NCBI GenBank assembly: GCA_000004985.1
Contig: GG738850.1
Length of the DNA: 64,000 nt
Source of the DNA: Naegleria gruberi
Taxonomy: Eukaryota
Reading direction: 5' to 3' (one strand)
Of the stretch, positions 21,597-48,685 are shown one piece after another. A model generated the notes under the pieces. The model worked only from the letters and a program-made list of their open reading frames with translations. It had not been told where the DNA came from and did not search any database. How positions within the stretch are numbered: position 1 is the first letter of the stretch; each line of letters starts with the position of its first letter. Both the position numbers and the translations under genes were made by a program.

Positions 21597-21667
21597 TAGG
21601 AAGACAGGGAATCGAACCCTGATCTTAGGAACCACAATCCCATGTTCTACCACTGAACTATCTCCCT
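21597..21667 (-). tRNA. tRNA-His (anticodon GTG)
   Basis: 71-nt cloverleaf read by hand: acceptor AGGGAGA/TCTTCCT with one G-U pair, D arm GTTC-AGTGGTA-GAAC, anticodon arm TGGGA-TTGTGGT-TCCTA (U33, GTG, G37), T arm CAGGG-TTCGATT-CCCTG, discriminator A. Followed by a T-run (CACCTTTTT). Identical to the copy at 48613..48683. Confidence 0.85.
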
Positions 21668-21726
21668 TCTTGCTTAAAACTAAATGAATTCATAATTTTA
21701 AAACCTCAAACTCGTCAACTCTCCGA

Positions 21727-21739
21727 TTAAGGTGGCGGT
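21727..21739. repeat. left terminal inverted repeat core TTAAGGTGGCGGT
   Basis: Exact reverse complement of 24156-24168. Confidence 0.5.
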
Positions 21740-22145
21740 AGGTGTTTCCGAAAATATTCCTTCAATAAAAAAAAAAATTGTTGTGATGAAATACTTTTCT
21801 GTTCCTTTGCTCTCCTTTCCGTCTGCTAATAGTGAACCAATATGTGCTAATCTTTTATATCGTAAATAATATTATTGTCTAGTTGTTTTTCAAATTTTGA
21901 TCAATAGATACTAGCTTTCACAGAGAAAATTTAGAGTTTTACATTTAAAAATTAAATTAGATTTTTCACTATTTGATCCTCCTTGATCCCACGATCGGAA
22001 GAGTTTCTAAATTCAAAATAATGTAGACTGTGTGTTGGTTACTTTTCGTCATGCTTTGTCATGCTTTAATTGTGATTTTACCTTCAGTTCCACAAGAACG
22101 AAAATTGGCAAACAAAGAACAACAACAACAAACAATCACAAAAAA

Positions 22146-24044
22146 ATGCAAAGAAAATTTTGTTTTGTTTGTGGAGTCTTGACAGGTGTTTTTGCAGCAA
22201 AATTCTACACAGTTAAGAATGGATTTGTTGGTAAAATACCTATTCATCATGCATGCCACGATGGTATAATTTGTGGAAAACATTATAACATATTCAGGAG
22301 ACAATTTAATAATTTAGATGAGAACTTTACAAATATTGAATTTGGAACAAATGAAACAGTACAACATAATCACTCTAACAAAACTCAATCATATCAATTT
22401 CACATTCATAATGAAAGTAACATTTTACCCTTAGACCCACAGTCATTTAAAAGTTTAGAAAATCAAAATATCGGCCTTACCATTATTCCAACTGACCACT
22501 TGATTCGTATTGTGAAACCAGTACAGTGTAAAATCTGTGAGAGCACAAATATACATTTAAGAGAAATTACTAAAAATGGATTTGAACAGATATTCCGTTT
22601 TACTTGTTTGGCTTGTAATACGGTATTTGTTTTTAGAACATGTCCAAGGAATCTTAAATTGAATAGACATATTATTCAATCATTTGAACTCTCGAACTCT
22701 ACCTATGAATCATTTAAAACATTTACAACCCTTGTCGGATTGCCAATAATTAATAAGAAATCATATTATCAAGCAACAAACAAGTTATGGAGCAGTAGTA
22801 GTCAAGTATTAAATCAAGAAATGGACAAGGAATTGGAAAAGATTGCAAATCAGAAAATGAAACAAGTGCTTGGTCCTTTAATTTCTGCATTTGAACTGGG
22901 AAGAGAAGTTCCGGCATTGATTTACTCCTTCATTCATGATGCAATATTTTTGGATATATCAGTTGATGCAAGATATTCATCTAGGAGAAATGTTTACGAA
23001 TGTACTCTTGTGGTATTCGAAACAAAGGCAAAAAAAACAATTGAACGATCACACGTTATCAAGAAAAGAGCATCTAATAGAAAAAGTGCCTTACAATGGT
23101 TTATGGGAGCCTCTAAATTAATGGAGCCAGAAGCATGTCGTTTAGCAATTACATCTTTGAAACACAAGTCATTTCCAGTAATGGGTTATGGTATTTTACA
23201 TTTCAAAATTGGCTCTTTTGTTCATGACAAAGACTCAACTGTGGCAGCAGTCATCAAGAAATTAGAACCAACAGCATTAGAAAAGTTAGATCCAAATCAT
23301 GTAATCAAAAATCTGAGCAAGGAAGTAGAAGAAAAAGCACCCCGTATTGCCAGTATTATTGTATCATCCTTTAGGAAAGCTCTAAAATTAGCCAACACCA
23401 CCACTAATTCAAATGAGAAACTCCAAGCATTATTGAAAGCTTATCCACAACATTTACAAAATAACCATTCTCTGTGCGATTCAGGTTGTCCACACACAAT
23501 TAAACCAGAAAAATTGATCACTAAAGAGGAAGCACAAGTTGTTAAAGAAATATTTGACAAACGAATCAAATATAGTCACAAATTTTGTGATATTGCATGC
23601 AATAGCCAAAACAATGAGTCCATACATAGTACTATTTGTCATACAACACCAAAGACATTAGATTTCAGTCGAAATTATTGTGGAAGAGCTGATCTGGCAA
23701 TAGGTGAACGATTGCTTGGAAAATTTGCACAATTAAGAAAAATTCAAAGATTTATTGGTAGTCTCTTCGTGATTCCAAAAGAGCAGGCCATCAAGTTAGA
23801 TACTCAATATCATCAGGATAAAATAAGGAAACAGTCTAAAGCTTATAAGGAAAGAAGAGTGGAGCTTCGGAAAACAAAACTTAAGGTAAAAGAATCTCCA
23901 CAGCCAAAGGGAACAATTGGAAGTTGCACATGTTCGAAGGGTTCGACATGTACAAAAGCTTGTCCATGCAGAAAAGCCGGGAAATCATGTACTTCCAAAT
24001 GCTCTTGTTCCCTTACCAAATGTTCAAACAACAAAAAAGTTTGA
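22146..24044 (+). CDS. putative transposase-like protein: N-terminal zinc-ribbon motifs plus C-terminal tesmin-like CXC cysteine-rich tail
   Basis: Track ORF is 22032..24044; first ATG is at 22146 (MQRKFCFVCG...). Motifs CFVCG...HHACHDGIICGKH and CKICES-x19-CLACN (CxxC...CxxC ribbon). Central segment FIHDAIFLDISVDARYSSRRNVYECTLVVFETKAKKTIERSHV loosely resembles the first-D region of ISXO2/IS1595-Merlin DDE transposases. C-terminal CTCSKGSTCTKACPCRKAGKSCTSKCSCSLTKC. No cellular family recognised. Flanked by the inverted repeats above. Confidence 0.5.
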   Translation: MQRKFCFVCGVLTGVFAAKFYTVKNGFVGKIPIHHACHDGIICGKHYNIFRRQFNNLDENFTNIEFGTNETVQHNHSNKTQSYQFHIHNESNILPLDPQSFKSLENQNIGLTIIPTDHLIRIVKPVQCKICESTNIHLREITKNGFEQIFRFTCLACNTVFVFRTCPRNLKLNRHIIQSFELSNSTYESFKTFTTLVGLPIINKKSYYQATNKLWSSSSQVLNQEMDKELEKIANQKMKQVLGPLISAFELGREVPALIYSFIHDAIFLDISVDARYSSRRNVYECTLVVFETKAKKTIERSHVIKKRASNRKSALQWFMGASKLMEPEACRLAITSLKHKSFPVMGYGILHFKIGSFVHDKDSTVAAVIKKLEPTALEKLDPNHVIKNLSKEVEEKAPRIASIIVSSFRKALKLANTTTNSNEKLQALLKAYPQHLQNNHSLCDSGCPHTIKPEKLITKEEAQVVKEIFDKRIKYSHKFCDIACNSQNNESIHSTICHTTPKTLDFSRNYCGRADLAIGERLLGKFAQLRKIQRFIGSLFVIPKEQAIKLDTQYHQDKIRKQSKAYKERRVELRKTKLKVKESPQPKGTIGSCTCSKGSTCTKACPCRKAGKSCTSKCSCSLTKCSNNKKV

Positions 24045-24155
24045 CTTGTAATAATAAATGATTTTTTATTAAAATTGCTAAATTTGTAATTTTGCCAATA
24101 ATAGATATTCGAATATTTGTAAACCAACATTTGCACTTCCAATTAAAATAGGTAG

Positions 24156-24168
24156 ACCGCCACCTTAA
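24156..24168. repeat. right terminal inverted repeat core ACCGCCACCTTAA
   Basis: Exact reverse complement of 21727-21739. Lies in the 3' flank of the CSN2 gene. Confidence 0.5.
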
Positions 24169-24250
24169 AATCGTTTACTTAACTTTCGAATAACTTACTC
24201 CGTGCCATGAACACATATCAAAATTTAATTTACAATTAAAGATTTATTAT

Positions 24251-25585
24251 TTAATTTACTCTTTGGAGAATTGCTTGGTGAACATCGTTAAGTTTGACAG
24301 TCCATTGGCTCAAAGCCTTGTATCGGGTCAATTCTTGTCCTTGTGAAGAAAGTGTGATCATTTGGTTGACTTGATCAACATAACCATCCAATTTACCATC
24401 CAAAATCATGTCAATAACTAAAGCTTCAACATCTTCAGCAGAAATGCTCAATTCCTTTCCTAAGAAGGTCATCTTGATACGAGTGTATGGCTTCATAATC
24501 TTACCCAAGACACGTGTACGAATTGTCTTTAACAAATCTTCAATATATTCCTTCATGAAATTGTCTTCTAAAATAGCCTTCTTGTTATTCTTCAAAACCT
24601 TGTCGAATTCCTTGATATTGGCTTGTTGGTAGTGTTGAACAAGATCAGTCATGGCTACAATATCAGAGTGACCCTTGTATGGTTTAGCTTCGTTGGCATC
24701 AAAAGGATTGATAGAAGATTGAGACAAGATTGAAGCCAAAACCAAATACTTCAAACAATCAATACGACGTGGATTACCAGCTTCATCATATGATTTGAAA
24801 GCTTCGAAAAAGTCATTAAAAGCTTCACTCCACTTCTTTTCACGCATATACATTTTACCACCACATTCACGAATAATACCAGTAATACGAGGATTCAAAA
24901 CGACAGCACCTCCTGAAATGATACCAATACATCTTTGATAAAGTTGGGCAAGTTTCTTGAGTTGATTTTGTTCACTGTACATTTGAATTTCAAGAACATA
25001 AACATCCAACATGTTAGATGACTTCTTTTCATCGGGCGTAACACCATCTTCTAACATACACCACTTTTTAAGATCGGTAATACAAGTGTTGAGCTTTTCA
25101 AAATCACGTGTTTGTGTAAACAATTGACCTTGCTTGAGTTTGGTATTAAACCACAACTTTTCATTGTTAGCCTTTAACAAAACTTCAAGAGTCATTCCGT
25201 AGATTTGATCAAGCATATTCTTATCTGTTGATGATGATACCATAGATAAAACCTTGTTGATAGCCTTTTCACTTTCATTTCTAGAAACAATACTCATGTA
25301 GGTGAGCAATTCCTTGTAACGTTGTACCATTTGTTCCATCATACCAGCCTTGAAAAGAGTCTTGACCATTTGCTTGAGTGATTTAAAACCCCATTGTCCC
25401 TTCTCTTCTTCCAAGTCAAGGACAGTTTGGAAAAGTTCGAGGGCTTCATCCAAGTTTTCATCAACTTCACCCTTGGCAGTGTAGTAAGTATTTTCGACAA
25501 GGTTTTCATCGACTTCATCGTCCAACATTTCATCATCTCCCTTGTCATTATCATCGAGACCTACAACTTCACCTTCATCATCTTC
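24251..25585 (-). CDS. CSN2: COP9 signalosome subunit 2 (CSN2), exon 2
   Basis: Near full-length alignment to CSN2 (e.g. GEWGFKALKQM vs GQWGFKSLKQM, IRECGGKM, FDFFEAFKSYDEAGNPRR, INPFD..EAKPYK, KPYTRI). PCI domain. The frame is open upstream of the track Met (25528) to an acceptor TAG at 25586-25588. Encodes EDDEGEVVGLDDNDKGDDEMLDDEV..., matching the acidic CSN2 N-terminus. Confidence 0.9.
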   Translation of the reverse strand, partial: EDDEGEVVGLDDNDKGDDEMLDDEVDENLVENTYYTAKGEVDENLDEALELFQTVLDLEEEKGQWGFKSLKQMVKTLFKAGMMEQMVQRYKELLTYMSIVSRNESEKAINKVLSMVSSSTDKNMLDQIYGMTLEVLLKANNEKLWFNTKLKQGQLFTQTRDFEKLNTCITDLKKWCMLEDGVTPDEKKSSNMLDVYVLEIQMYSEQNQLKKLAQLYQRCIGIISGGAVVLNPRITGIIRECGGKMYMREKKWSEAFNDFFEAFKSYDEAGNPRRIDCLKYLVLASILSQSSINPFDANEAKPYKGHSDIVAMTDLVQHYQQANIKEFDKVLKNNKKAILEDNFMKEYIEDLLKTIRTRVLGKIMKPYTRIKMTFLGKELSISAEDVEALVIDMILDGKLDGYVDQVNQMITLSSQGQELTRYKALSQWTVKLNDVHQAILQRVN

Positions 25586-25820
25586 CTATTATTATTATTT
25601 TGTTATTAATGAATTAGTATTTTCATGATGATCAGAGAATATGTTGAGATATGGAAATTGTTAAATTCAACAATATAATGATCAGCAAGAGAAAATATAT
25701 TCATATATGATAATATTAAAAAATCATGAATTAAATGTTGAATATTTTTGATCATTATCAAAATACATCATCATAAAAGATCTTGATCAATCACTACTAT
25801 CAAAAAACATTACTACGTAC

Positions 25821-25850
25821 AATTTCGAATTCAACATCATCATCAGCCAT
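25821..25850 (-). CDS. CSN2: CSN2 exon 1 (MADDDVEFEI), followed by a GTACGT donor
   Basis: ATG at 25850. Ten codons, then GTACGT (25820-25815). A 235-nt AT-rich intron ends in AATAG at 25586. Phase 0 to phase 0. Restores the conserved acidic N-terminus (human MSDMEDDFMCDDEEDYD...). Confidence 0.55.
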
Positions 25851-26880
25851 TTTGTGTGTGTTTATAGAGTACAAGGATACCAAGTGGTAATTATTTTTTA
25901 AAAATAAAAATTGATGATCTTTTTTTGCTGTGTGTTGTTGGGTGGAACTCGTTACAAAGTCGAACAAGCCACTGATTTCCACTGTGCAAGTTCACTTTAA
26001 AAAAATATTTTTAGAACACCTGATCCGATGAGCAGAAGAAAACAATCATCTACTTTTGACTAAATTACAAATAATAAATATTGGTGGTAGATTAATAAGT
26101 AGATTATCAAGAATTTATAATGTAATTTATGTTGTAGAATATTGTGGATCATCGCGATGATGATTATTATTTGTGAATATATTTAATTACCATAAATGAG
26201 GATTGTTTTGTAGTAAAATAATTTCATCATGATGGTTGTTATCATTAATCTTTATTACTCTAAACGTCTTGTAACCTGGAAGTTTTCTCTTGAAAGAGGG
26301 CCTTCCATTCATGGAGAGACCATACAGAGAGCTGTGGTTTCCATCGCGGACAGAGAATAAGGTCACACGCCTAATTTCTGTGGTACTACCCGCTTACATA
26401 CTCAAATTTTATTACTTTTACACTTATTAAGCATTATCAATCATTTATTGATTGTACTTTGAATGAAACAGGAGTTGACAAGAAGCTCAATTCACTTTTT
26501 ATTAGAAATTTTATGAAAGCTTATCAAATGTTGAGCTCAATGGACCAATGTCACTGATACCAAAAAGGATGGAATAGTTGATAGCTTGGCAGCAAGCTCT
26601 TTACTCTTGAAATTTGATTGTCATCACCTCTTCAAAACAATAACTGAAATTCTATCATTGTGAACAATAGCATTCAATGATTTTAGTCGCTAGTAGTGAT
26701 TGCTATGTTTCTTTCTTTTTTATTACATGAGGTAATTTGAAATGATTTACTTTCCTCTTGCTATTTATTTGATAAACGAACTATTGATTTACCTTCAGTT
26801 TACAATTTTCATTCATGTTGTACATCATTTTCTTTTGTGTGGATTCAGCAATAAGAATAATAGAAACAGGACAGCTTTAT

Positions 26881-31770: not shown

Positions 31771-31843
31771 CTCCCCCTGGTGGGCTCGAACCACCGACCT
31801 GCAGATTAACAGTCTGACGCTCTACCGACTGAGCTAAGGGGGA
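31771..31843 (-). tRNA. tRNA-Asn (anticodon GTT)
   Basis: 73-nt cloverleaf: acceptor TCCCCCT/AGGGGGA, D arm GCTC-AGTCGGTA-GAGC, anticodon arm TCAGA-CTGTTAA-TCTGC (U33, GTT, A37), variable AGGTC, T arm GGTGG-TTCGAGC-CCACC (the Asn-typical T arm), discriminator G. T-run downstream on the gene strand (TTGCTTTTGG). Confidence 0.8.
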
Positions 31844-33682: not shown

Positions 33683-34705
33683 ATATCATTCTATTGGAGG
33701 AAATTAAGGATGACGCTCTCAGAGAAGTTAAAGCCAAAGTCACACGTTCTGATTATATTGACATTTTCGAGGATTATTTCCACATGATTGATGATATAAG
33801 AACTCGTTTTGAAGATTTATTGTGGATGCGTATTGCTGACTTGGAATATACAGCTGAGAACGAACCCGAAACTGTGGTAAGAATTGCAAGAATGATCGAT
33901 AAGGAAGAAGAAAGAGATCAACGTAAATTAGTGGAATACGATGAAAGACTCGAAGCTCTCAGAAAGAAGAAAAAGAATAAGAGATCAGATGAAGACGATA
34001 TCCATGAAAGTTCTGTACTTGAACCTAAATTGAGAAGAATGAAAGAGGAATTCTTCAAGAGACTTCGTCAATCAGTGAGTGACAAGTTCAATGAAGCAGT
34101 TTATGCCACCGAAGGGAGAAAGAGTGTCGATGAAAAGATTAATGATTTGACAACCTTATTGGGTGAAAAATTGAATATTGGTGTTACTAGATATGTGTCG
34201 ACATGCTTCCCTTCCTCTTGGAAGATTGTTCCATTCCTTGCCAGTGCCTATGAGGAAGAGTTGGTAAAATACATTGAAGGATTGGTAAATCCAAAGAGTG
34301 CCAGTTACAATACTCTTGGTATTGGTGACAAACTCAAAGTTATCAATTGGCTCGATGATTATAAGAATTTAGTGGATGAAGTCACTACCAATCCAAGATC
34401 ATTTGAAAATGAAAAGAAACAACTCATTGGAGATTATATCAGTACTAGATCCAGTTTTATGATTGAATATACCAATAGTACAGTTTCTTTGGACTTTAGA
34501 GATTTTGAGAATATTCCGCTCAATGCCAACATTAGAGGTTATCCATATACTGCTGCCTGTGTTGAAGTATTTACATTTATCAATCAGCAATTGGATGAAT
34601 TGATGGAAACTGAAATTCCAGAAGTGATTCCACCATCTATGGGTGGTTTGAAAGCCTCACTCAGATTCTTTATTGACACCTCCTTTGAAAAAGTTGAGGA
34701 AAATA
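33683..34705 (+). CDS. SEC6: Sec6 exon 2
   Basis: Acceptor AATAG at 33678-33682. Contains TVVRIARMIDKEEERDQRK, matching human EXOC3 LLVSVVRIIEREEKIDRR. Ends in phase 1 at a GTAAGT donor (34706). The next intron is only 44 nt. Confidence 0.75.
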
Positions 34706-34749
34706 GTAAGTTTTTTTCAAAATTATACATGAATATTTATCAAACATAG

Positions 34750-35386
34750 TTGAGGATATTCCACTTGTTGTCATTTGTGCTCTCATTAACAATAACACTA
34801 CCAGTATTGACTACTTGAAAGCAGTGGTTGAGAGAATTGAACACTTACTTGTGGAAGACAATCTCTTCGACTTGGAAGATCAATTCAAAAAGAATGGATA
34901 CAAAATGGTCGACTTGTTATGTGAACGTGTCATTATGGCCGATGTTAAGGATTTACTGAATGAATTATTTACAGAAAATTGGATGGTTGTTCCTTTGGAA
35001 GAAAAACTCGAAAAGGAGGATTTGATTGTTGTTCTGAGAGATGCACCAGTTTACAAGATGGTTGAAATGATCTTTGAACCATATTATAAGGAATTGGAGG
35101 AGGATTTACTTGAGGCAGAATACAGAGATCACCTCACTGAAAAACTTGCCGAAATATTTGTTGGAAAATATATGGAGAAACTCTTATTCAATAAGGTACA
35201 TTTTGATGACCCAATTGATGCCTCCAATCAAATGAAGGAAGATATTAGAATTATTAAGAGATTCTTCACTGCAGAATATAATGCCAAGGAAGACGATGTT
35301 GAATATTCGGCACAGAGAATGGATGTGGATATGTTTAGTATGAATTACTACGAACCTATGAAGAGTATCTTTTTAATTTTGAAAGC
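34750..35386 (+). CDS. SEC6: Sec6 exon 3
   Basis: Acceptor ACATAG at 34744-34749. Frame continuous with track ORF 34815..35396. Ends in phase 2 at a GTATGT donor (35387). Confidence 0.7.
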
Positions 35387-35493
35387 GTATGTTTAATTTT
35401 GAATTTTATTCGAATCATTTATATTCGTATCATAATTATTTCGTATCTTGGCCATTGAATGCTTTAAATATTATTTCAAACCCTTTTTGATAG

Positions 35494-38495: not shown

Positions 38496-38602
38496 GTAAG
38501 TTTTAAATTACTGTACAATAATTTAATCTAAATGATTGTTTCAATGTAAATTAAATTATTGGAATAATTTTTCAATATTATTATTCGAAATATTTCATCT
38601 AG

Positions 38603-39857
38603 TTGGCAAGGAATTGGTACGAGTGCATTGGGAGGAGGTATTGTTTCCATTCTGGCCATTCTTGCATTACTCTTTTTCGATACAGTTCGTGGATTGGGAT
38701 GTTTTGGTGGTATTGAACCAACCAAGCAATTATTCTATGGAAGAGAACAAAGAAAACAACCGTATGGACAATGTCAGACATTTTCATTGAAAATTATCTT
38801 GGCAGTCATGTTAGTTTTGATTGGAGGATTGTGCACATTGCTGATTATTGGTAATGTGATTTTCAATGTTTCATTTGAGAATGGTAGAGTTTATTTCAAG
38901 GCAACTCTGGTTGACATGTTTAATACGACTGTTAATTTGCAAACTGTTGCTAATAGAATTCAAGTTGCAAGTGGATCGACTTCAGATATTACTGACATTA
39001 ACACTTTAATTTCACAACAGCAAACTGCATTGAATTCTACCAATACTTTGGTTAGAGAAATTAGACATTTGAACTTTTTGAGATACTTTTTATTGATGGT
39101 TATTGCTGTGGTCATGTTATCGGTTCCATTATTGGGTTTATTGGGTGGTTTAACCCATTGGAAGGAGTTTGCTTTGTATGGTGTCAGATTTGGTTACATG
39201 ATGCTTGTTTGTGCTTGGATTTTGTTTACCATTCACTTTGCATTTGCAATGGTCACTCAGGATATGTGTGCAACAGCAGACAGATATTTGCAGGGTACAG
39301 AGGGAAATACTACATCTAGTTCTGAACTTGTTTCTCAAGTTTCATCATTGGTTTCCATATTTTCTCAATGTTCAAACTCATCTCAACTTGTTAAGAATAG
39401 TGGTGTCAGTATGAGTTTAGTTGATGGCATGTTAACAAGTTTGAACCAACAATTGACAAATGCAGACAGTCAAAAACGTGATTTCCATCTCGTATTGTAC
39501 AATGTTACCAATGCCACAAGTATTGATTTTGTTGCTGCCAATCCAGATACTAAGGCCAATGTTCAAAAATCGGTTGATAGTATTCTATTGTTTGCCTATG
39601 ATTTGATTCCATCCTTTTTGACATACAATAATTGTTCAAGTGTTGGAGAAAAGTTTGTACAATTTGTGGATTCAGGTTGTGTTGGCATGTTGTCAAGTAT
39701 TCATATTTTGTGGGCTGTCTTTTTAGTTATAGGATCAGCGCTTATTCCACTCACTTGGTTCAATTGTTTAGGATATAAGAGATTCAGAAAGAAGCGTTTC
39801 GTCATTCCAAAAGAAAGACAACCAGAAGGTGTTGAAATTGCTCTCCATCTTACTTAA
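38603..39857 (+). CDS. exon 2 of the multi-pass membrane protein (4-5 TM helices; tweety/Prm1-like topology, family not established)
   Basis: Acceptor TCTAG at 38598-38602 is phase-compatible (ta + t = TAT). Frame open from 38568. Track ORF 38628..39857 starts with TTG. Several long hydrophobic helices with large intervening loops. Confidence 0.55.
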
Positions 39858-39984
39858 TTTGTTGTTTATACGAGATTAGAAATATTGTACTATACTTTTG
39901 AAATAAATTATTTGTTGTAATTTTACACAAACATATGGGAATCTCAGGTTTACAAAATAATAATTTAATAATGTTTAAATAGTC

Positions 39985-42900
39985 TTACAAAAAGTCATCA
40001 TCCAAATCATCAAAAAGTTTTGATGTGGTTGCCTTCTTCTTTTTCTGGAGTTCTTCTTGCTTCTTCTTAAGAGCAACTTCATCTTCCAAATCATCTTCAA
40101 ATAAGAAACTAGCCTTTGGTTTGTTTTCAATAACTGCACTTGTGGCAGTTGATTGCAACCATGGATCGATCTGACTGGCATCAGTAGTTTCCTCAAAAAC
40201 AGAAGGAAGCTTCTTGGCACTTCCATTGGATGGTCTATCTTCTTCGAGAGAAGGCTGTGTCGAATCTACATATTCCAAATCATCAACTTCTTCTTTTGTT
40301 TCAGTAACAGAAGTATCTTGAGCTGGCTCTTCAACAACAATTGGAGCTTGTTCAACAGGTTCTTGTTCACCGCTAACTTCTGGTGTAGATTGTTCAGTCA
40401 CTGGTTCAGTTTCACTTATTGTTGGCTCAGCTGTAGTTTCTTCAGCTTGTTGTTCTGTATCAACAGGATCAACAGTTGTTTCAGTAGATTCTGGAACTGT
40501 TTCAACTGCTGGTTCTTCTTGTGTTGATGGTTCTTGAACAGTTTCAGTTGTTTCAGTAGATTCTGGAACAGTTTCGATAGCAACAGGTTCTTCAACAACT
40601 TGAGCAGGTTCTTCTTGTGATGGCTCCTCTTGAACAACTTCTGGAACTATTTCAACAGCAGGTTCTTCTTCAACAACTTGAGTTGGTTCTTCTTGTTGTT
40701 CCTCTTCAACAACAACACTTTCTGGCTCTGTTGTAACAACTTGAGTTTCTGGCTCAACTTGTTCTTCTTCAGCAGCTTCAGGTTCTTCTTGTTCTTGTTC
40801 TTCAACAACAACTGGAGCTTGTTCAACAGGTTCTTCTTGTGTTGGTTGTTCAACAACAATTGGTTCATCCTTGGTTTGTTCTTCAACAATGGCTTCTTCT
40901 GGTTCTTCTTCCAAAGTATTTGGAGTGGTAACAACTTCTGGTTCAGCAGCAGCTTGTTGAATAACGACAGGAGTTTGAGTCTTGGCCAAAGCAACTTCTT
41001 CCTTCAAAGACTCGATTTGAGATTCGTACTTGGCAATTTCTTCCTTCAATGAAATATCGAATTCTGATTTGAGGTCATCAAGTTTGACATTCCATTCACT
41101 TTCTAATTCTTGACGAATAACAGCTTCCAAAGCAGCCTTGGAAACTTCTTCTTTTGGTTCTTCTTCTTCCTCTTCATCTTCCTCCAATTCCAAATCTTCA
41201 GCTTCATCTTCTTCCAAATCGAGAAGAATCAATGATCTTCTTCTGGAAACATCCTCATCAATTTCTTCCTCTTCATCTTCATCATAATCAATATAGACAT
41301 TTGGATCAATGTTCAACAAGTCCAAACCACTGAATTCTTCAGTAATGAGACTCATAACCTTCAAACTGAACTTTTTAACAATTTGTCCCAAGAAGGAAGA
41401 AACCTTGGCATGAGAAAGTTTCTTACCATTAATACCAGTAGAGAAGGTACGATAGACCTTATTGATGAGATTTCTAAAGACAGTCTTGAAAAGAGTTCTA
41501 ACATTATCAGACTTGGTATTCAAAGCTTCAAGGAACTTTTCACGCATCTTTTGAAGATTGGAGACGTTGGTGCTTTCCAAATCAGAAACTTCTTCAGTCT
41601 TGGCTTCAAGTTCTTGAGTGAGTCTGGCAATTTGAGTGGTTTGAGAAGAGTTGGATGCTGATAGATTGGCAACAGATTGCTTCAATCCTTCAATTTCTTC
41701 TGTTGTTTGTTCTTCGAGATTCTTCATCTTTTCCTTCCACAATTTTTCAATGCTTTCTCTCAAAGTTTCAGCTCCACTTTCAGAACTCTTCAAGTTTCTT
41801 TCCAAATCTTGGCTTGCTTCAGTTTTGATTCTTTCAATTTCTTGCTTTTGTTCTCTCTTGAGTTTTTGAAGAGCAAGGTTATGTTCATTTTCCAATTTTT
41901 GAAGCTTTTCTTGCCATTCCTCTTCCAAGGAAGCAATCTTTTCTTTATGATCAGCTTCAGTCCTGTTTTTCTTCTTTTTGTTTTCATTGTTGATTTCTTC
42001 AATTTCCTTCTTCAAGACTTCAATTTCTGATTGCAGATTTTCAATATTTTCCTTTTCAGATTGAACTTGTTCTTGAGCTCTGGAGGTCTTTCTCTTTTGT
42101 TCAGCCAATTGCTTTCTGAGAGAGGCAATGGTTTCATTGAGCTTTTGCAATTCTTCTTCGTACATTCCCTTTTCAGAAAGGTTGCTACTCTCCAAAGACA
42201 AGTGAGTGAGTTCGAGTTGTTGTTGAGCATACTTTTCTTGCTTTTTACGAAGTTGTGAAATCTTTTCAATGAGAGAGTCAACTTGTTCTCTTTCCTTTTG
42301 AAGATCAGTTTGGAGCTTGGAATTGGTAGCTAACAAGTGTTGTATATTTTCAATCAAGAGAGGACCAGACATGTAAATGTGAGACTTTTTAAACTTTTTG
42401 AGTTGGTATCCATTGATCAAAATGTCCTTCTCGGCAGAGTTTTCTTCTTCATCACCTTCGTGATCCTTATCTTCCTCTTCATCGAGTTCATTTCCAAACT
42501 TGGAAGTATTTCTGATCAATTGTGTGAAAGAAAGATTGTCAATATTTCTTTCAATTTTATCCAATCTAGACAAGAGTACAGAAACATCATCAATCCATTG
42601 ATTTGATGGTGCCTTCTTTTCGGCTGGCTTTTCTACAATAGGTTTTTCAACTGGTTTTTCAACAGCAGTTGTAACAGTAGTAGTAGTAGTTGTTGGAGTT
42701 GCTGTTGTTGGAGTGGAAACTGTTGTTGTTGCTGGTTGTTGTTGAGAAATTAAGGATTGCAATGAGGCAAGTTGTTGTTTGAGAGCTTCAATTTCACTAT
42801 TAGAACCAGATGTACTTGTTTCAGTTGTATTCTCTGGAACAGTTGTGGCAGTAGTAGTATTAATAACTGGAGTAGAAACTGGTTGTTCTTGTACAATAGG

Positions 42901-43846
42901 TGTAGAGACTGGTTGTTGTTGTTGAACTGGTTGAGCTTGTTGAACAACTACTTCTGGTTGTTGTTGTTGTGGCAAGACAACTCCATAAGATTGAGCCCCA
43001 ATACGAGCCATTCTCACTTTCAAATTATCAGATTCAACCATTGGTTGTGCTTGTTGTTGATTTAAATTTACAGGAGAAGAAACTGTTTGTACAATTGGTT
43101 GTTGTTGTTGTTGCTGTTGGCTAGTCATAATGGTTGGCATTGAACCAGTTGTTGAACTAGTAGTAGAAGATTTGATCTTTTTGATTTTAACAACTTCAAT
43201 TTGGAAGCAGAGAATTGAATTTGGTGGAATAACATTGGCAGCACCACGTTCTCCATAAGCTAAATGAGAAGGAATAACACAGAATTTCTTTCCGCCTTGA
43301 CGAACATTTTTCAATGCATGTTCCCATCCACTTATTACTTCAGATTCTCCAAATTTAAATCCGAACAAGTTATTTGAATTCTCATTAGTGTCAAATAATT
43401 TACCCAATGAAAAACCCTTCTTTGGATCATTATCGACAATCCAACCACTGTACTTGACATAGATTTTCAATCCATCCCTACAGGCAGCAACATTTGGATC
43501 AACTGCACCAGAATTATTTCCCAATTCATTCAAATTAACAGTAGTGACATCCATAGTTTGTTGTCCCATAAACTTGGCCACACAAACCATTTTGGCAAAA
43601 TGGGTAGCAGCATCAGCATTTTGGAATCCAATGGATAAAATTCTATTAGAGTGCAAATCGTGAAGAGATGCAAAATTTGAGGTAGCACCCAATTGAAGAG
43701 TCAATAGAGTATGTTGAGCAGTGATTGGAACTTGGAGAACAATATCTGATGGATTACGATAGAAAATCAAGTTTGGAATTGGATGATTATTCAAGATGGC
43801 AGCTCCAACTTTTCCGAAAGGTTGATATTGTCTTACTTCATTTGAA
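39985..43846 (-). CDS. FKBP15/WAFL-like protein, exon 3: WH1-like region, FKBP-type PPIase domain, long coiled coil and acidic repeat tail
   Basis: GKVGAAILNNH and FAKMVCVAKF match human FKBP15 (GKFGAAVLGNH, FNKQVCIAKC). FKBP domain ...SGWEHALKNVRQGGKKFCVIPSHLAYGERGAANVIPPNSILCFQIEVV. Track ORF starts with TTG at 43794; frame open to acceptor AATAG at 43847-43851. Confidence 0.85.
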
Positions 43847-43943
43847 CTATTTTAAAATGATTATTGCAATTAAATGATTATTTTTAAGAGGTTTTGAAAT
43901 TAAATAATTAGAGAAATAGAGTTGAAATATTTGAAAATATATG

Positions 43944-43967
43944 ATAATAATAATAATAATAATAATT
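43944..43967. repeat. (ATA)n microsatellite inside an FKBP15-like intron
   Basis: ataataataataataataataat read directly. Confidence 0.6.
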
Positions 43968-44067
43968 GATAGTAATGTTGAAACATTTGAAAATATATGA
44001 TAATAAATAATAATAAAACATAATAGGATGAATATTAGAAAAAATAAATTATGTGAAATAAACATAC

Positions 44068-44322
44068 AATAAGAATAATTCAACAACAAGAGCATGAATG
44101 ACAGTGCCATTCTCACCACGAACCTTATTTTGAACATTGGCTGTAGAAACAGAAGGAGTGACTGCTGAATTTGTTGTTGAAGTAGAGCTAATGGAAGCAG
44201 ATGAAAGTTTTCTTTGCATTTGAGATGAACCATTACTACTGGTAGGAGAAGGTTTGAATTTAAAATCGGAATCTGTCGAATCGGAATCACCACCTCCAAA
44301 GAGGGTTCCTAATCTTGCTCCA
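44068..44322 (-). CDS. FKBP15-like exon 2
   Basis: Encodes (T)GARLGTLFGGGDSDSTDSDFKFKPSP...NGTVIHALVVELFL. GARLGTLFG matches the FKBP15 N-terminus GARLASLFG. Bounded by acceptor AAATAG (44323-44328) and donor GTATGT (44067-44062). Length 255 nt, phase-consistent. Confidence 0.6.
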
Positions 44323-44545
44323 CTATTTAATCATGATCAAATATTGTTATTATTAAATAATCCGTGATCAACATTTTGATTATATTCCGTAATATAATAT
44401 TATATTCATATCATATTCATCCAATCATGTTAATTTTCCAATAACAAGTCGATAATAATTTAAGTAATATAAAACATGTTAATAACAAAATTGACAAAAC
44501 AATCCAAATTATTATAGTACTTCTATTCAATAACAACACACTTAC

Positions 44546-44631
44546 GTCGAAGAAGCAAGTGGATTACCACCGATCATACCTCCACCAAATGAAACTGTAC
44601 TCTCATCATCACTATCATCGAGGAAGCTCAT
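44546..44631 (-). CDS. FKBP15-like exon 1 (MSFLDDSDDESTVSFGGGMIGGNPLASS...)
   Basis: ATG at 44631. Ends in phase 2 at GTAAGT (44545-44540). Acidic N-terminus as in human FKBP15 (MFGAGDEDDTDFLSPSGGARL). Confidence 0.55.
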
Positions 44632-45643
44632 TTTTTCAAAAGTAATAAATCATCAAATGGCTTGAGAAGTAGTGAAAAAATCTTTCGGAGTTGTTATGAA
44701 GTTGTTAGGAAGAGGAGATGGTTTAATATATTGATGGAAGGTTACCTGTTGAATTTGTGCCTATTCTTATTACTGTTGAATGATGACTTTCGAGTGTACA
44801 ACAATAGTAGAATATATTGGTGTGGATATTTTGTTGTTATATGGTTGGATGATGAAAATTAGAAAAAGACAAATATGTGCATTGAATGGATTTGGTAGAA
44901 TTCAATTTATTAATTTAATACTAATTGATAAAGTATTCAATATTACATGATGATAGTATCATCTTGATTGTGATGATTAAAATTTTCTTTTCTTCGTTTC
45001 TCTGAGTTCTACGTATTGTTTGTGTGAATTTTGATCTTTTATCTTGATCAAATATATATTCGGTTATAGATGAAGAGTTTCAATTCAACAAACTTCTTTT
45101 TCATTATCCTATCACTCAACGTGTATTGAGTAATATATTGTAGTGAGTAACCTTCAAAAAAGATAATTGTAGATTGATGTGGTGGCTTTGTGATCCTTTT
45201 CATAATTTACATGACATTGTATTCTTTGTAATGTCTAGTCATCCTCGATTACAAGACCAATTGTTTGTGAGCAACTCGCCGATTGGCCCGTTCTTCAGAT
45301 TGACCGTGTTTGATTAAAGTGTGATGGGTTGCGTGGCGCCAATTAATTCTTGTAAGTTCACCAGCCAAATTGTTGCTTTTTAGAAGATGGAACACGCCAT
45401 ATAATGACCTTCCACTTTTAAATAAACGTTGTAATTCTGTTCGGCATGTGTTCAATTTCTCACGCTGTGTTTGTTACTTTCTCATCTGTTGGCAAACAAC
45501 GGAACCAACAACCGCCGTGAGCCATTATCGAGGCGATGCTGGAAAGTGAAGCCTTCAAAATGTTCAGCAGCGATATTGTTATAAAACTCGTGCATCTACT
45601 ATCATTTTAAAAAAAAACACAACAACAATAATAATACAACAAA

Positions 45644-46135
45644 ATGTCTGAAACCAAGCAAGTCGAATTAACATCCAAGGATAAAGTTTCCTTCAAGGTT
45701 GATAGAGATGTCATCTTGATGTCCGGTCTCGTTAAGGATATGTTAGAAGAAGGTGATGAAGATGAAACACCAATCATCCCAATTCCAAACGTTGATTCCA
45801 AGCCATTGCAAAAGGTTATTGAATATTGTCAATATCACCACAAGGAACCAGCCCAAGAAATTGAAAAGCCATTGAAGGGTAAGATTGAAGATGTTATCTG
45901 TGATTGGGACAAGAAGTTCTTGGAAATTGATCAATCTCTCTTGATTGAACTTATCATGGCTGCCAACTATTTGAATATTAAGGATCTTTTGGATTTGACC
46001 TGTGCTAAGGTTGCCTCCATGATCAAGGGCAAGTCACCAGAACAAATTAGAGAAATGTTCGGTATTGAAAATGATTTCACCCCAGAAGAGGAAGCCAAAA
46101 TTAGAGAAGAAAACAAGTGGTGCGAAGAAGCATAA
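45644..46135 (+). CDS. SKP1: Skp1 (SCF ubiquitin ligase adaptor), 163 aa, single exon
   Basis: True ATG. Full-length Skp1 hallmarks: IEYCQYHH, the dimerisation C-terminus DLLDLTCAKVASMIKGKSPEQIREMFGIENDFTPEEEAKIREENKWCEE. Confidence 0.95.
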   Translation: MSETKQVELTSKDKVSFKVDRDVILMSGLVKDMLEEGDEDETPIIPIPNVDSKPLQKVIEYCQYHHKEPAQEIEKPLKGKIEDVICDWDKKFLEIDQSLLIELIMAANYLNIKDLLDLTCAKVASMIKGKSPEQIREMFGIENDFTPEEEAKIREENKWCEEA

Positions 46136-46343
46136 ATTGTATTATAAATTTGTTAATTTTAATTTTTATTTAATTTTTATTTAATGTTATTTAATTTTTA
46201 TTTCAATATTATTAAATTATTGTTGGAATTAGTGAAATTGGGTAGCATGCTGAGATAATTTAAAATTGCTAGGATTAATAAAGTATGAATATTGACAGTT
46301 GACAATGATTTTAAAATCTCAAATATTATTTGTTTTTATTGGA

Positions 46344-48170
46344 TTAGTCACTCTCTTCCTCTTCTTCTCTTTTCCTCTTGTTCTTTTCATTCCTATTTTC
46401 ACTGACCAGTTTGTGAAATTCTTGCTTGATAGAGACTGTGTTTGCATTTGGTTTCAACAATGAGCGAGTCAATGAAAGCATGTTTGCAATCTTTAACAAA
46501 TTGATATCTTTGGTAGAGAGAGAACCCAATTTGTTTCTCAAATATTTAACCAAACTGTTTCTGTCAGCAGAGCCATAATTTTGCTCAGTGATCATGGTGG
46601 GCTCAATTTTGATACTTCTTCTATTTGAACCAGATGGAATGAATGAGTGATCAACACTAGTATCTATGGCACCTTTGGCTTTAAATAATTTAACTTCGGT
46701 TTTCAACAAGCCAAAATCAATTCTGAAAAACTTTTCAGACTCTAACCGAACAATTTTCAAAATTTTCCAACACTCTACAATGACACGATAGCCTCCTGTA
46801 TATCTGGGAATCATGTTACCAATTCTTGCAATGTGATCAGAAATGTAACAACAATCTGGAAAATCAATAATTGTTGGTGATTTGGTATCGTAAAAACCTT
46901 CTTCTTGTCCAAGTAACCAATTCAAGCATTCACCATATTCAATATTGCCTCTAATCTTTTCTAAAAGCTCAGGACATTCCTTGTACATTGGATTTGGTGT
47001 GTTAGCTTTAACTATTTTCCAAGTTGAATCCATAATTCTTCTTTTAGTAATGATTGGATTCTTATTCTTATAAGGAGCTAATGGAGTAAGCTTCTCCCAA
47101 AATTCATTTGCAGTAATTTCATCACCATTGACTTTTCTTGGCAATGGATATTGGGACTGGGCAATCTTTTCCAATTTCATATCAGCATTTCTTGTTGGAT
47201 TGCTTGCCAATTCACTACTATTACCATTGATTGCCTTAGGTGTAGTTGGTAGAGCATTTTGAACACCCAATTGAATGGCAGCAATCAAGTCTTGGATTGT
47301 CATGTTATTCAACATGAGAGGCTGTGCTGGTGTAATAGATGATTCTGTAGAGGTGAGGAGAGTTCCTTCATCTTGTTTGACAATTCCTTCATCTTGTTTA
47401 ACATCCTCCTTGTAACAAGTGAGCTCCTTGTACAAATCGAGTGATTTTTGTCTATCAAAATGTACAAACAATCTATAGATCATTACTAATCTATCATTGG
47501 TGGATATTTCCATGTCAAATCCTAATTGCTCTGACTTGGCATCAATCCACTTGTTCAAAAAGGATGTAAATACCTTTCCAAATAGAATATTTTCATCAGT
47601 AGAGCTATATTGAACAATTGAATCGTAAATATAGGTAGGCAAATGAAACTTGATTCTTCTAAAGAATGAGTCACTTGTTACATTATCCAATGGAGGTTCT
47701 TCTCTCAATACATTGATAAATTTCTCCTCTGTGTAGTCATTATCTTCAGCAGTTTTAATACCCATGAGTATACTGTTAGGGTCAATTAAATGTAGGATTT
47801 TCTTGTCAACATAACGACGATAGACATTGTTACCTGGTGTTAACTTCCATCCATACCAACGAATGATTAGTTCAAACTCGTCAACCTTTAAACTTTGGTG
47901 TTGGATCATGATTTGCACAGCAGCCCATGTAGCTCCAGATCTTCTCATACTATAAGGAACAATATGTTGCTGAATTCCAACAAATAATCTAGAATTGGTA
48001 ATTTCTTTAGCAAATTGACTCAAATTGTGAGGTACAAAACCATTTCCAATAGAGGAGAATAAATGCATTTCCAAACATTCTTCCTTAATAGAAAAGTCAC
48101 AATTTTTCAAACATGACTCCAAGTTACCACTTTTGAAAATTCCTCTCAAAGCCAAATATTCTAAAAGCAT
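46344..48170 (-). CDS. protein with Crypton/DIRS-type tyrosine-recombinase-like N-terminal motifs (possible domesticated YR-derived gene or Crypton remnant), 608 aa
   Basis: True ATG at 48170. Residues about 70-125 read PYSMRRSGATWAAVQIMIQHQSLKVDEFELIIRWYGWKLTPGNNVYRRYV. These resemble eukaryotic YR boxes (G)HSxRRGGAT...LGRWKS...YIR, with H to Y at the first position. ALRG at residues 7-10 may be the box-I Arg. No family recognised for the rest. Internal tandem repeat KQDEGIVKQDEGT. Confidence 0.55.
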   Translation of the reverse strand: MLLEYLALRGIFKSGNLESCLKNCDFSIKEECLEMHLFSSIGNGFVPHNLSQFAKEITNSRLFVGIQQHIVPYSMRRSGATWAAVQIMIQHQSLKVDEFELIIRWYGWKLTPGNNVYRRYVDKKILHLIDPNSILMGIKTAEDNDYTEEKFINVLREEPPLDNVTSDSFFRRIKFHLPTYIYDSIVQYSSTDENILFGKVFTSFLNKWIDAKSEQLGFDMEISTNDRLVMIYRLFVHFDRQKSLDLYKELTCYKEDVKQDEGIVKQDEGTLLTSTESSITPAQPLMLNNMTIQDLIAAIQLGVQNALPTTPKAINGNSSELASNPTRNADMKLEKIAQSQYPLPRKVNGDEITANEFWEKLTPLAPYKNKNPIITKRRIMDSTWKIVKANTPNPMYKECPELLEKIRGNIEYGECLNWLLGQEEGFYDTKSPTIIDFPDCCYISDHIARIGNMIPRYTGGYRVIVECWKILKIVRLESEKFFRIDFGLLKTEVKLFKAKGAIDTSVDHSFIPSGSNRRSIKIEPTMITEQNYGSADRNSLVKYLRNKLGSLSTKDINLLKIANMLSLTRSLLKPNANTVSIKQEFHKLVSENRNEKNKRKREEEEESD

Positions 48171-48306
48171 AAAAGATAAAGCAATTGTTATTCAAACCCC
48201 AATCCACAAAGTTTAGATTCACTCTCTTTCAATCATTGATAAAATGAATTTGTTAGCTTTTATTTTGAATTTTATTACCAGTTCTCTATTCCACACAAAA
48301 AGATAC

Positions 48307-48426
48307 AAGACTACAGCACCACAGGTTCCCAAGTTGTCTCCAACCTCAGTACTGATGTGGTTCGACGATGCTTAACTTCTCAAATCGGACGGGATGAGGT
48401 GCATTCATCGTGATATGGCCGTAGCC
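48307..48426 (-). rRNA. 5S ribosomal RNA (~120 nt), dispersed copy
   Basis: Reverse complement reads GGCTACGGCCATATCACGATGAATGCACCTCATCCCGTCCGATTTGAGAAGTTAAGCATCGTCGAACCACATCAGTACTGAGGTTGGAGACAACTTGGGAACCTGTGGTGCTGTAGTC. It matches the universal 5S consensus (GCCTACGGCCATACC...CCCGTCCGATCTGCGAAGTTAAGC...GTACTGG...GGGAATACC..GGTGCTGTAGGC). Terminal helix pairs. T-rich stretch (TCTTTTG) downstream. Confidence 0.85.
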
Positions 48427-48612
48427 AATCATATTATCAAAATAATGTTAGTGAACTATTAATATTTCTAAATTGCTTAACTTATCTATCACAATGAGTG
48501 AAATTCTCAAAAAAAATGTTATGTCTAAATCATAATTAAACAGATCTCGTTTTTCATTATTAACTTTAACTTGTACTGATTATAAAATAAACTAATTTAC
48601 ATCAATTAGAGA

Positions 48613-48683
48613 AGGGAGATAGTTCAGTGGTAGAACATGGGATTGTGGTTCCTAAGATCAGGGTTCGATTCCCTGTCTTCCTA
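48613..48683 (+). tRNA. tRNA-His (anticodon GTG), second identical copy
   Basis: 71/71 identical to complement(21597..21667). Followed by CC + TTTTTT. Confidence 0.85.
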
Positions 48684-48685
48684 CA

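What the first reader, a model, noticed from the sequence alone, without database searches (positions are those of the whole stretch)
21597..48683. Two 100%-identical tRNA-His(GTG) genes in opposite orientation 27 kb apart, each flanked by a mobile-element-like gene
complement(21597..21667) and 48613..48683 are 71/71 identical with similar immediate 3' flanks (ACACC + T-run). One sits 57 bp from the inverted-repeat element, the other 190 bp from a 5S gene and the YR-like ORF. This fits Pol III-transcribed genes acting as insertion landmarks, or segmental duplication or gene conversion of a Pol III cassette.
Basis: seen in the sequence. Interest (0 to 1): 0.5.

Follow-up and report, generated by a model that had tools for sequence, protein, structure and literature searches.

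The report
Ordinary tRNA-His copies beside two transposons
Two identical histidine-tRNA genes in the amoeba Naegleria gruberi are ordinary dispersed copies of a multi-copy gene family; one has a recently inserted Kolobok DNA transposon 59 bp upstream and the other lies 186 bp from a 5S rRNA gene that has a broken recombinase-type element 137 bp beyond it, but nothing shows that the elements aim at such genes.

Summary
The window is Naegleria gruberi NEG-M nuclear DNA. It holds tRNA-His(GTG) at 21597-21667(-) and 48613-48683(+), 71/71 identical, plus tRNA-Asn and a 5S gene.

Similarity between the two His loci covers the gene, 3 nt upstream and CACC+T-run downstream. It is weak to about -26/+13 and at background beyond, so there was no recent segmental duplication.

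Both neighbouring ORFs are mobile-element genes.
- **Kolobok transposon:** 21731-24164 is a 2,434-bp element with TTAA duplication, GG..CC termini, 9-bp inverted repeats and an intact 632-aa transposase. A ~99%-identical strain has the empty site, so the insertion is real and recent, 59 bp upstream of tRNA-His A.
- **Recombinase fragment:** 46344-48173(-) is a 5'-truncated copy of a ~1,100-aa tyrosine-recombinase (Crypton-like) gene. It lacks the first catalytic Arg and Lys. Its broken end lies 137 bp past the 5S gene.

Pol III targeting is untested genome-wide. A naive window permutation gives p~0.003, but it is post hoc with n=2. Only one of four other recombinase loci is tRNA-adjacent. Low interest.

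The parts
21597..21667 (-). tRNA-His(GTG) copy A. Eukaryotic type: A73 discriminator, no encoded G-1, A box TAGTTCAGTGG, B box GGTTCGATTCC. Terminator CACC+T5 lies at 21588-21596.
21727..21730 (.). Left copy of the TTAA target-site duplication of the Kolobok element. It lies 59 nt upstream of the 5' end of tRNA-His A.
21731..24164 (+). Kolobok-superfamily DNA transposon, 2,434 bp. Termini are 5'-GG..CC-3', with perfect 9-bp inverted repeats GGTGGCGGT/ACCGCCACC. It is absent from the orthologous site of a ~99%-identical strain (L002, L003).
22146..24044 (+). Intact transposase ORF, 632 aa (= EFC48547). It matches Pfam PF20700 at 3e-17. Motifs VDARYSS, HDKDST and NNESIH..PKTLDFSRNYCGR are colinear with KolobokP transposases. 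The C-terminus gives a sub-threshold match to the Tesmin/TSO1 CXC domain.
24165..24168 (.). Right copy of the TTAA target-site duplication.
31771..31843 (-). tRNA-Asn(GTT), the third tRNA gene in the window. No mobile-element ORF lies next to it, and its 3' flank (TTGCTTTT) differs from that of the His genes.
46344..48173 (-). 5'-truncated copy of a Crypton-like tyrosine-recombinase gene (608-aa ORF). It starts at the equivalent of residue 501/502 of the longer N. gruberi copy P0016. It keeps YSMRRSGAT..GW..Y but lacks the Arg-I and Lys motifs. The 3' limit of the element is undefined and lies between 46136 and 46343.
48308..48426 (-). 5S rRNA gene. Its 3' end is 137 nt from the break point of the recombinase fragment, and its 5' end is 186 nt from tRNA-His B (divergent orientation).
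48613..48683 (+). tRNA-His(GTG) copy B, identical to copy A. Terminator CACC+T6 lies at 48684-48693. It is 89 nt from the stop codon of a host TPR/F-box gene, and the same neighbourhood is seen in the second strain (L006).

Best explanation
The window is a gene-dense stretch of the Naegleria gruberi nuclear genome. The two tRNA-His(GTG) genes are two members of a dispersed, multi-copy nuclear tRNA family. They are identical because the whole Pol III transcription unit, from about -3 to the T-run, is under strong constraint, and perhaps because of occasional gene conversion. They are not identical because a segment was recently duplicated. Each sits in one of the few non-coding spacers of the region, and two unrelated mobile elements occupy the same spacers. 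(1) A Kolobok cut-and-paste DNA transposon inserted at a TTAA 59 nt upstream of tRNA-His A. It is intact and present/absent between closely related strains, so the event is recent. (2) A Crypton-like tyrosine-recombinase element survives only as a 5'-truncated, catalytically dead fragment next to the 5S/tRNA-His B pair. Shown: the identity and limits of all parts, the empty site, the truncation, and the unrelated flanks. Inferred: the co-location reflects insertion and retention in tolerant spacers of a compact genome, plus rearrangement at Pol III loci, rather than a dedicated Pol III targeting mechanism.
For: - Organism: exact protein matches to N. gruberi NEG-M on a 707,703-bp scaffold.
- tRNA and 5S calls.
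- Flanks: alignment shows identity limited to the gene, AGA upstream and CACCT5 downstream. Binned identity is 15/26 in the nearest 26 nt upstream (background P=0.0025) and 11/13 downstream, then 1-4 per 10 nt, which is the background level.
- Kolobok element: PF20700 transposase at 3e-17; perfect 13-nt TTAA+TIR pair found only at the two ends; window 21043-21730 and 24166-26743 are contiguous in L002 and L003 at 98.6-99.3% identity, with the tRNA-His present. The TTAA duplication and RR/YY termini fit the published definition, and Kolobok is already recorded in Naegleria (PMC9587614). Motifs are colinear with KolobokP transposases.
- Recombinase fragment: 120/120 identity to the C-terminus of P0016, whose 500 preceding residues are missing here. 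The R..K..[H/Y]xxR..W..Y motifs appear in the family alignment. Top Foldseek hits are Cre, XerH, Ndc10, QRICH1 and Flp.
- Rest of the window: all other large ORFs with a Pfam match are ordinary host genes and none matches a mobile-element family (five have no match): dynein heavy chain, PCI, PLD, Sec6, FKBP, Skp1, TPR/F-box and others.
- Other recombinase loci: N. lovaniensis L007 has its nearest Pol III genes 6.5 kb away. L001 has none in 10 kb upstream. L008 has none. L009/L010 has a tRNA-Ile 144 nt downstream.
Against: - Both mobile elements in 64 kb lie within 140 nt of a Pol III gene. Uniform placement in the 16.4 kb of non-coding, non-element DNA gives p~0.003. This figure is post hoc, n=2, and the window was selected for this pattern.
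- One distant relative of the recombinase element also abuts a tRNA gene.
- The residual similarity of the nearest ~26 nt upstream and ~13 nt downstream shows the two His loci share more than the mature tRNA. That fits common descent or conversion of a ~110-nt unit as well as it fits constraint.
- No genome-wide data could be obtained.
Confidence: 0.72

Rival explanations
1. Pol III genes are true insertion landmarks in Naegleria. On this reading the Kolobok transposase and/or the recombinase element is tethered to TFIIIB/TFIIIC or to nucleosome-free DNA near Pol III genes, as Ty1/Ty3 are in yeast and TRE5/TRE3/DGLT-A are in Dictyostelium.
For: Both elements in the window lie 59-137 nt from a Pol III gene (naive p~0.003). 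The Kolobok insertion is recent and lies upstream of the tRNA at a distance similar to Dictyostelium TRE5 (the latter from my own knowledge). A distant recombinase homologue sits 144 nt upstream of a tRNA-Ile. The genome is compact, with about 5% repeats (PMC6125883), a setting where safe-haven targeting has evolved elsewhere.
Against: There is only n=1 per family in the window. The end of the recombinase copy facing the 5S gene is an internal break, not an integration junction. L007, L001 and L008 show no adjacency. tRNA-Asn, and the N. lovaniensis 5S/tRNA-Glu pair, have no element next to them. The Kolobok papers read here define its target only as TTAA, and one states that KolobokP shows no strong target preference; neither reports Pol III targeting.
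Confidence: 0.13
2. The two His genes descend from duplication of a short Pol III cassette of about 110 nt, or are kept identical by gene conversion between dispersed copies. One possible route is retroposition of a primary transcript running from about -3 to the T-run.
For: Perfect identity spans exactly the expected primary transcript (AGA + tRNA + CACC + T-run). Similarity is above background to about -26 and +13. tRNA-Asn has a different trailer.
Against: The same pattern is expected from constraint on the leader, the trailer and an upstream TATA-like element. There is no poly(A), no target duplication and no other retroposition mark. With only two copies visible, conversion cannot be told apart from purifying selection.
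Confidence: 0.12
3. The inverted pair marks, or has caused, an inversion of the intervening 27 kb by recombination between the tRNA-His copies.
For: The identical repeats are inverted. Gene order breaks exactly after the PCI gene, at the tRNA-His A side, relative to another Naegleria species (L004/L005).
Against: Both junctions (PCI-tRNA-His A-dynein, and TPR/F-box-tRNA-His B) are the same in the second strain. Undoing the inversion does not restore the L004 gene order. Only about 83 nt of identity is available.
Confidence: 0.03

Closest known systems
Dispersed multi-copy nuclear tRNA gene families of eukaryotes (Pol III type 2 genes)
   Same: Identical mature sequences with unrelated flanks, internal A and B boxes, a T-run terminator, and the A73/no-encoded-G-1 arrangement typical of eukaryotic tRNA-His.
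   Different: Nothing unusual. The only extra is modest similarity in the nearest ~26 nt upstream and ~13 nt downstream.
Kolobok superfamily DNA transposons (Kapitonov & Jurka; Xenopus XKol/T2-MITE; KolobokP)
   Same: TTAA target duplication, 5'-RR..YY-3' termini, short terminal inverted repeats, and a DDD/E transposase with motifs colinear to KolobokP. The superfamily is already recorded in Naegleria (PMC9587614).
   Different: It is small (2.4 kb) with a single ORF. No THAP domain is detectable by Pfam. The C-terminus is only a sub-threshold CXC-like cysteine-rich tail. Similarity to KolobokP is weak (10 bits), and Pfam labels the catalytic domain 'Mutator-like'.
Crypton tyrosine-recombinase DNA transposons and their domesticated derivatives (Ndc10, QRICH1)
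   Same: A tyrosine-recombinase core (R-K-[H/Y]xxR-W-Y) is the only recognisable enzyme. No reverse transcriptase lies nearby and no terminal repeats are seen. Foldseek hits include Ndc10 and QRICH1.
   Different: The protein is about 1,100 aa with long N- and C-terminal regions of unknown function. Element boundaries and mobility are not demonstrated. Only about five relatives were found among 1.8 billion representative proteins. The window copy is a dead fragment.
tRNA-gene-targeted retrotransposons (yeast Ty1/Ty3; Dictyostelium TRE5, TRE3, DGLT-A)
   Same: Mobile elements lie tens of nucleotides from Pol III genes in a compact genome.
   Different: Those are retroelements with many copies at fixed distances and with demonstrated TFIIIB/TFIIIC or Pol III interactions. 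Here there is one DNA transposon and one recombinase fragment, and the pattern is not replicated.

Membership tests
Eukaryotic nuclear tRNA-His(GTG) gene | Cloverleaf or covariance-model match with anticodon GTG | tested here: met
   ARAGORN; Rfam RF00005 at 69.2 bits against a gathering score of 29.
Eukaryotic nuclear tRNA-His(GTG) gene | A73 discriminator with G-1 not encoded; A and B boxes; downstream T-run | tested here: met
   Read from the sequence: position -1 is A, the discriminator is A, the boxes are TAGTTCAGTGG and GGTTCGATTCC, and T5/T6 begins 5 nt after the gene.
Kolobok DNA transposon | TTAA 4-bp target-site duplication | tested here: met
   TTAA lies on both sides. The empty allele has a single ATAA at that position, which is one SNP or an excision footprint.
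Kolobok DNA transposon | Termini 5'-RR and YY-3' with terminal inverted repeats | tested here: met
   GGTGGCGGT...ACCGCCACC; definition taken from PMC9587614.
Kolobok DNA transposon | DDD/E transposase homologous to known Kolobok transposases | tested here: inconclusive
   PF20700 'Mutator-like transposase' matches at 3e-17. A profile of six KolobokP proteins gives only 10 bits (E 1e-5 for one target) over the catalytic-E block. BLASTP E-values are 0.006-0.03. The three catalytic blocks are colinear by eye.
Kolobok DNA transposon | THAP (C2CH) and H2CH zinc-finger motifs, which are usual but not universal | tested here: inconclusive
   There is no Pfam THAP hit at E<=10. The spacing C6-x2-C9-x34-C44-x2-H47 and the stretch HLQNNHSLCDSGCPH are compatible by eye only (PMC6004289).
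piggyBac | DDE_Tnp_1_7 transposase and CCC..GGG termini (it shares the TTAA duplication) | tested here: not met
   No such Pfam hit. Termini are GG..CC.
Mutator/MULE | 8-11 bp target duplication and long terminal inverted repeats | tested here: not met
   The duplication is 4 bp (TTAA) and the inverted repeats are 9 bp. Only the Pfam family name points to Mutator.
Tyrosine recombinase | Catalytic R-K-H-R-[H/W]-Y residues in order, on the Cre/integrase fold | tested here: inconclusive
   The family alignment shows GxR, HDK/KEK, [Y/H]SxRR, GW and Y. The AF2 model is poor (pLDDT 45), yet 24 of its best 26 PDB matches are Cre-type or XerH recombinases and the other two (Ndc10, QRICH1) are relatives of that fold, with Cre at E 1.7e-4. 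There is no significant Pfam or PDB sequence hit. The window copy itself lacks Arg-I and Lys.
Crypton | Tyrosine recombinase as the sole enzyme, with no RT/RNase H; no LTRs or TIRs | tested here: inconclusive
   No reverse-transcriptase domain appears in the neighbouring ORFs of the window, L001 or L007. No terminal repeats lie around the L007 gene. Element boundaries are unknown.
Crypton | Demonstrated mobility: multiple copies and insertion polymorphism | not testable with these tools
   There are at least two copies in N. gruberi, identical in protein sequence over the shared 120 residues, and the family occupies non-syntenic positions in other species. No empty site is available.
DIRS-like retrotransposon | RT/RNase H ORF next to the recombinase gene | tested here: not met
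   None found on either side in the window, L001 or L007.
Pol III-targeted mobile elements (Ty3/TRE-like behaviour) | Many copies at a fixed distance and orientation from tRNA or 5S genes | not testable with these tools
   The N. gruberi assembly is not searchable here. JGI metagenome scans were empty. The available loci are mixed.

The most novel reading that the evidence does not exclude
In the compact Naegleria genome, unrelated DNA-level mobile elements (a Kolobok transposase and a Crypton-like tyrosine recombinase) have evolved, or are selected for, integration within about 150 nt of Pol III genes. This would be a DNA-transposon counterpart of the tRNA-targeted retrotransposons of yeast and Dictyostelium, and for the recombinase an echo of bacterial integrases that use tRNA genes as attachment sites.
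Probability: 0.1. Interest if true: 0.6.

Novelty: new member of a known kind. Interest (0 to 1): 0.25.

Why it matters
As it stands, this is routine genome anatomy.

Two by-products have modest value:
- The strain-polymorphic, intact Kolobok copy indicates that this family has transposed recently in N. gruberi and gives exact ends for it.
- The tyrosine-recombinase family is very small, is missed by Pfam, and is not described for Naegleria in the literature I could search.

If a genome-wide census showed real enrichment next to Pol III genes, it would extend safe-haven targeting from retroelements to DNA transposons in a third eukaryotic supergroup.

Tried and rejected
- **N. gruberi paralogue contigs:** look-ups for P0016, P0003 and P0017 were not on record, so no flanks of the other Kolobok or recombinase copies could be read.
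- **JGI metagenome scan for the exact tRNA-His:** no matches.
- **JGI metagenome scan for recombinase relatives:** an alignment of seven proteins was too divergent to search with. An alignment of four matched 415 stretches, none of which was confirmed.
- **Sequence searches with the recombinase protein:** nothing significant in Pfam or PDB sequences.
- **Structure prediction:** the AF2 model was poor, so the fold matches are indicative only.
- **Possible partial tRNA at the end of contig L008:** not supported by Rfam at E<=1; dropped.
- **Inversion between the two tRNA-His genes:** both junctions are the same in the second strain; rejected as unsupported.
- **piggyBac and Mutator classifications for the TTAA element:** rejected on termini, duplication length and Pfam results.
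- **5S gene as part of a mobile cassette:** the flanks of the N. gruberi and N. lovaniensis 5S loci are unrelated.
- **Literature:** full-text searches turned up no paper on mobile elements near tRNA genes in Naegleria.
Full report
**Source and observation**

Eight ORF translations were looked up by exact sequence. Five are in the collection. Three of these (Skp1 EFC48551, the transposase-like EFC48547 and EFC48552) are annotated proteins of Naegleria gruberi NEG-M on a 707,703-bp scaffold; the other two (the PCI-domain protein and a 424-aa ORF) cluster with longer N. gruberi models on that scaffold. The window is therefore nuclear DNA of this amoeboflagellate (about 35% G+C).

ARAGORN and Rfam agree on four Pol III genes:
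- tRNA-His(GTG) at 21597-21667(-) and at 48613-48683(+), 69.2 bits each
- tRNA-Asn(GTT) at 31771-31843(-)
- a 5S rRNA gene at 48308-48426(-), 103 bits

The two His genes are 71/71 identical. They also share AGA just upstream and CACC plus a T-run downstream. They have the eukaryotic tRNA-His features, read from the sequence: an A73 discriminator, no encoded G-1, and canonical A and B boxes.

**Duplication or not**

A 470-nt alignment centred on the genes shows no similarity outside the genes and their immediate borders. In 10-nt bins, ungapped identity falls from 4, 7 and 5 upstream, and 9 and 5 downstream, to 1-4 per 10 further out, which is the background level for this AT-rich DNA. The nearest 26 nt upstream match at 15/26 (background P=0.0025), and the first 13 nt downstream match at 11/13. 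The inverted-repeat arms found by the repeat tool are only 106 nt long at 90%.

A recent segmental duplication is therefore excluded. What is shared is essentially the Pol III transcription unit plus a short promoter-proximal stretch. This is the usual picture for dispersed eukaryotic tRNA gene copies. It cannot separate constraint from occasional gene conversion or from an ancient duplication of a ~110-nt cassette. tRNA-Asn has a different trailer.

**Element next to tRNA-His A**

ORF 22146-24044 (632 aa) matches Pfam PF20700, 'Mutator-like transposase', at 3e-17. A perfect 13-nt inverted pair, TTAAGGTGGCGGT / ACCGCCACCTTAA, lies at 21727-21739 and 24156-24168 and occurs nowhere else in the window.

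The decisive result came from looking up the neighbouring PCI-domain gene in other assemblies. Two assemblies of run ERR1078381 (L002 and L003) are 98.6-99.3% identical to the window. In them, window positions 21730 and 24166 are joined directly, and tRNA-His is present 60 nt away. At the junction the window reads CCGA-TTAA-[element]-TTAA-AATCG, while the other strain reads CCGA-ATAA-AATCG.

So 21731-24164 is a 2,434-bp insertion with a TTAA target duplication, 9-bp inverted repeats and GG..CC termini. It is polymorphic between close strains.

These features fit the published definition of the Kolobok superfamily: TTAA duplication, 5'-RR/YY-3' termini, and a DDD/E transposase. The superfamily is already listed for Naegleria (PMC9587614).

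The blocks VDARYSS, HDKDST and NNESIH..PKTLDFSRNYCGR are colinear with KolobokP transposases printed in that paper's supplement. Statistical support for this is weak: a profile gives 10 bits, and BLASTP gives E of 0.006-0.03.

piggyBac and Mutator are rejected on termini, duplication length and domain hits. No THAP domain is detected. The C-terminal cysteine-rich tail gives a sub-threshold match to the Tesmin/TSO1 CXC domain, E 0.001-0.016.

The only paralogues found in 5.8 billion protein clusters are two further N. gruberi proteins: P0017 at 59% identity on the same scaffold, and P0003 at 99%.

**Element next to 5S and tRNA-His B**

ORF 46344-48170(-) has no Pfam hit. Its first 120 residues are 100% identical to the last 120 residues of P0016, a partial N. 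gruberi protein on a separate 4,461-bp contig. P0016 has 500 more residues upstream. In the window, homology stops at about 48173, and the in-frame upstream sequence is unrelated and full of stop codons. The window copy is therefore 5'-truncated.

An exhaustive HMMER search found only five relatives. One is an intact 1,007-aa protein of N. lovaniensis (P0018). The alignment shows the tyrosine-recombinase motifs in order: G-x-R, HDK/KEK, [Y/H]S-x-RR-x-GAT, GW and Y. The window fragment begins after the first Arg and the Lys, so it cannot be an active recombinase.

An AlphaFold model of P0016 is poor (mean pLDDT 45; residues 410-560 reach 65-88). Even so, 24 of its best 26 PDB matches are Cre-type or XerH recombinases, and the other two are Ndc10 and QRICH1; Flp follows more weakly. 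The best is Cre at E 1.7e-4.

No reverse transcriptase lies beside any copy examined, and no terminal repeats flank the N. lovaniensis gene. 'Crypton-like' is therefore the closest label. Element ends and mobility are not shown, so membership is not established.

**Are Pol III genes landmarks?**

Every other large ORF in the window that has a Pfam match is a host gene, and none matches a mobile-element family; five have no match. Both mobile elements lie 59-137 nt from a Pol III gene.

Placing two points at random in the 16.4 kb of non-coding, non-element DNA gives both within 140 nt of a Pol III gene with p~0.003. This number is post hoc, rests on two events, and comes from a window selected for the pattern.

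Four points weigh against targeting:
- The end of the recombinase fragment that faces the 5S gene is an internal break, not an integration junction.
- The N. lovaniensis homologue is 6.5 kb and four genes away from the nearest 5S/tRNA-Glu pair.
- Contig L001 has no Pol III gene in the 10 kb upstream of its copy, and L008 has none.
- tRNA-Asn in the window, and the N. lovaniensis 5S/tRNA-Glu pair, have no element beside them.

One point weighs in favour. A distant, frameshifted homologue on JGI contigs L009/L010 ends 144 nt upstream of a tRNA-Ile(AAT) gene.

N. gruberi contigs are not retrievable here, and both metagenome scans were empty.

**Verdict**

The finding resolves into known kinds of object: two copies of a multi-copy tRNA gene, a 5S gene, a recently inserted Kolobok transposon, and a dead fragment of a Crypton-like recombinase element.

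The most likely reason for their proximity is that the few spacers of a compact genome (about 5% repeats, PMC6125883) hold both Pol III genes and tolerated insertions. Rearrangement at Pol III loci may add to this. Gene order relative to another Naegleria species breaks exactly after the PCI gene, at the tRNA-His A side.

Directed Pol III targeting remains a minority possibility, at about 0.1-0.13, and it can be tested cheaply on the full assembly.

Noticed in passing
L002 2540-2730 and L003 (run ERR1078381) against window 21727-24168: The empty allele reads ATAA where the window has the duplicated TTAA. This is either a SNP in a strain about 1% diverged, or an excision footprint of the Kolobok element.
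   Followed up: partly
L004 6121-8322 and L005 6663-8864 against window 21600-25528: In another Naegleria species (PCI gene 86% identical) the PLD-PCI gene order is kept. Downstream come RRF and short-chain dehydrogenase genes with no tRNA-His, so synteny breaks exactly at the tRNA-His A/Kolobok spacer.
   Followed up: partly
L007 2857-2928 and 3341-3459 (N. lovaniensis PYSW02000005.1); window 48308-48683: In both species a dispersed 5S rRNA gene lies within 190-415 nt of a tRNA gene (tRNA-Glu and tRNA-His respectively). The 5S sequences are nearly identical and the flanks unrelated. This may point to a general clustering of Pol III genes in Naegleria.
   Followed up: partly
L009 530-2569 and L010 101-2139 (JGI metagenome contigs): A distant, frameshifted relative of the recombinase gene (box II reads GHSMRKGCAT) ends in a Lys-rich tail 144 nt upstream of a eukaryotic-type tRNA-Ile(AAT) gene.
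   Followed up: partly
L008 1-30: The 2.9-kb contig carrying the recombinase homologue P0020 starts with (CCCAAA)n. This looks like a telomeric repeat, so the gene may sit on a very short or subtelomeric chromosome of an unidentified protist.
   Followed up: no
window 23910-24044 (C-terminus of the transposase): A cysteine-rich tail, CTCSKGSTCTKACPCRKAGKSCTSKCSC, is conserved in the paralogue P0017. It gives a sub-threshold match to the Tesmin/TSO1 CXC DNA-binding domain (E 0.001-0.016).
   Followed up: partly
window 60610-60692 and 61397-61479: An 83-nt direct repeat at 83% identity, spaced 787 nt apart, overlaps ORF 61132-61746. It is probably a pair of tandem paralogous genes.
   Followed up: no
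window 40283-42488: The 1,269-aa FKBP-domain ORF (39985-43794, minus strand) contains degenerate 44-85-nt direct repeats.
   Followed up: no
window 33694-35396: The exocyst Sec6 homologue is split into two adjacent ORFs (33694-34749 and 34815-35396). This is most simply a short intron.
   Followed up: no
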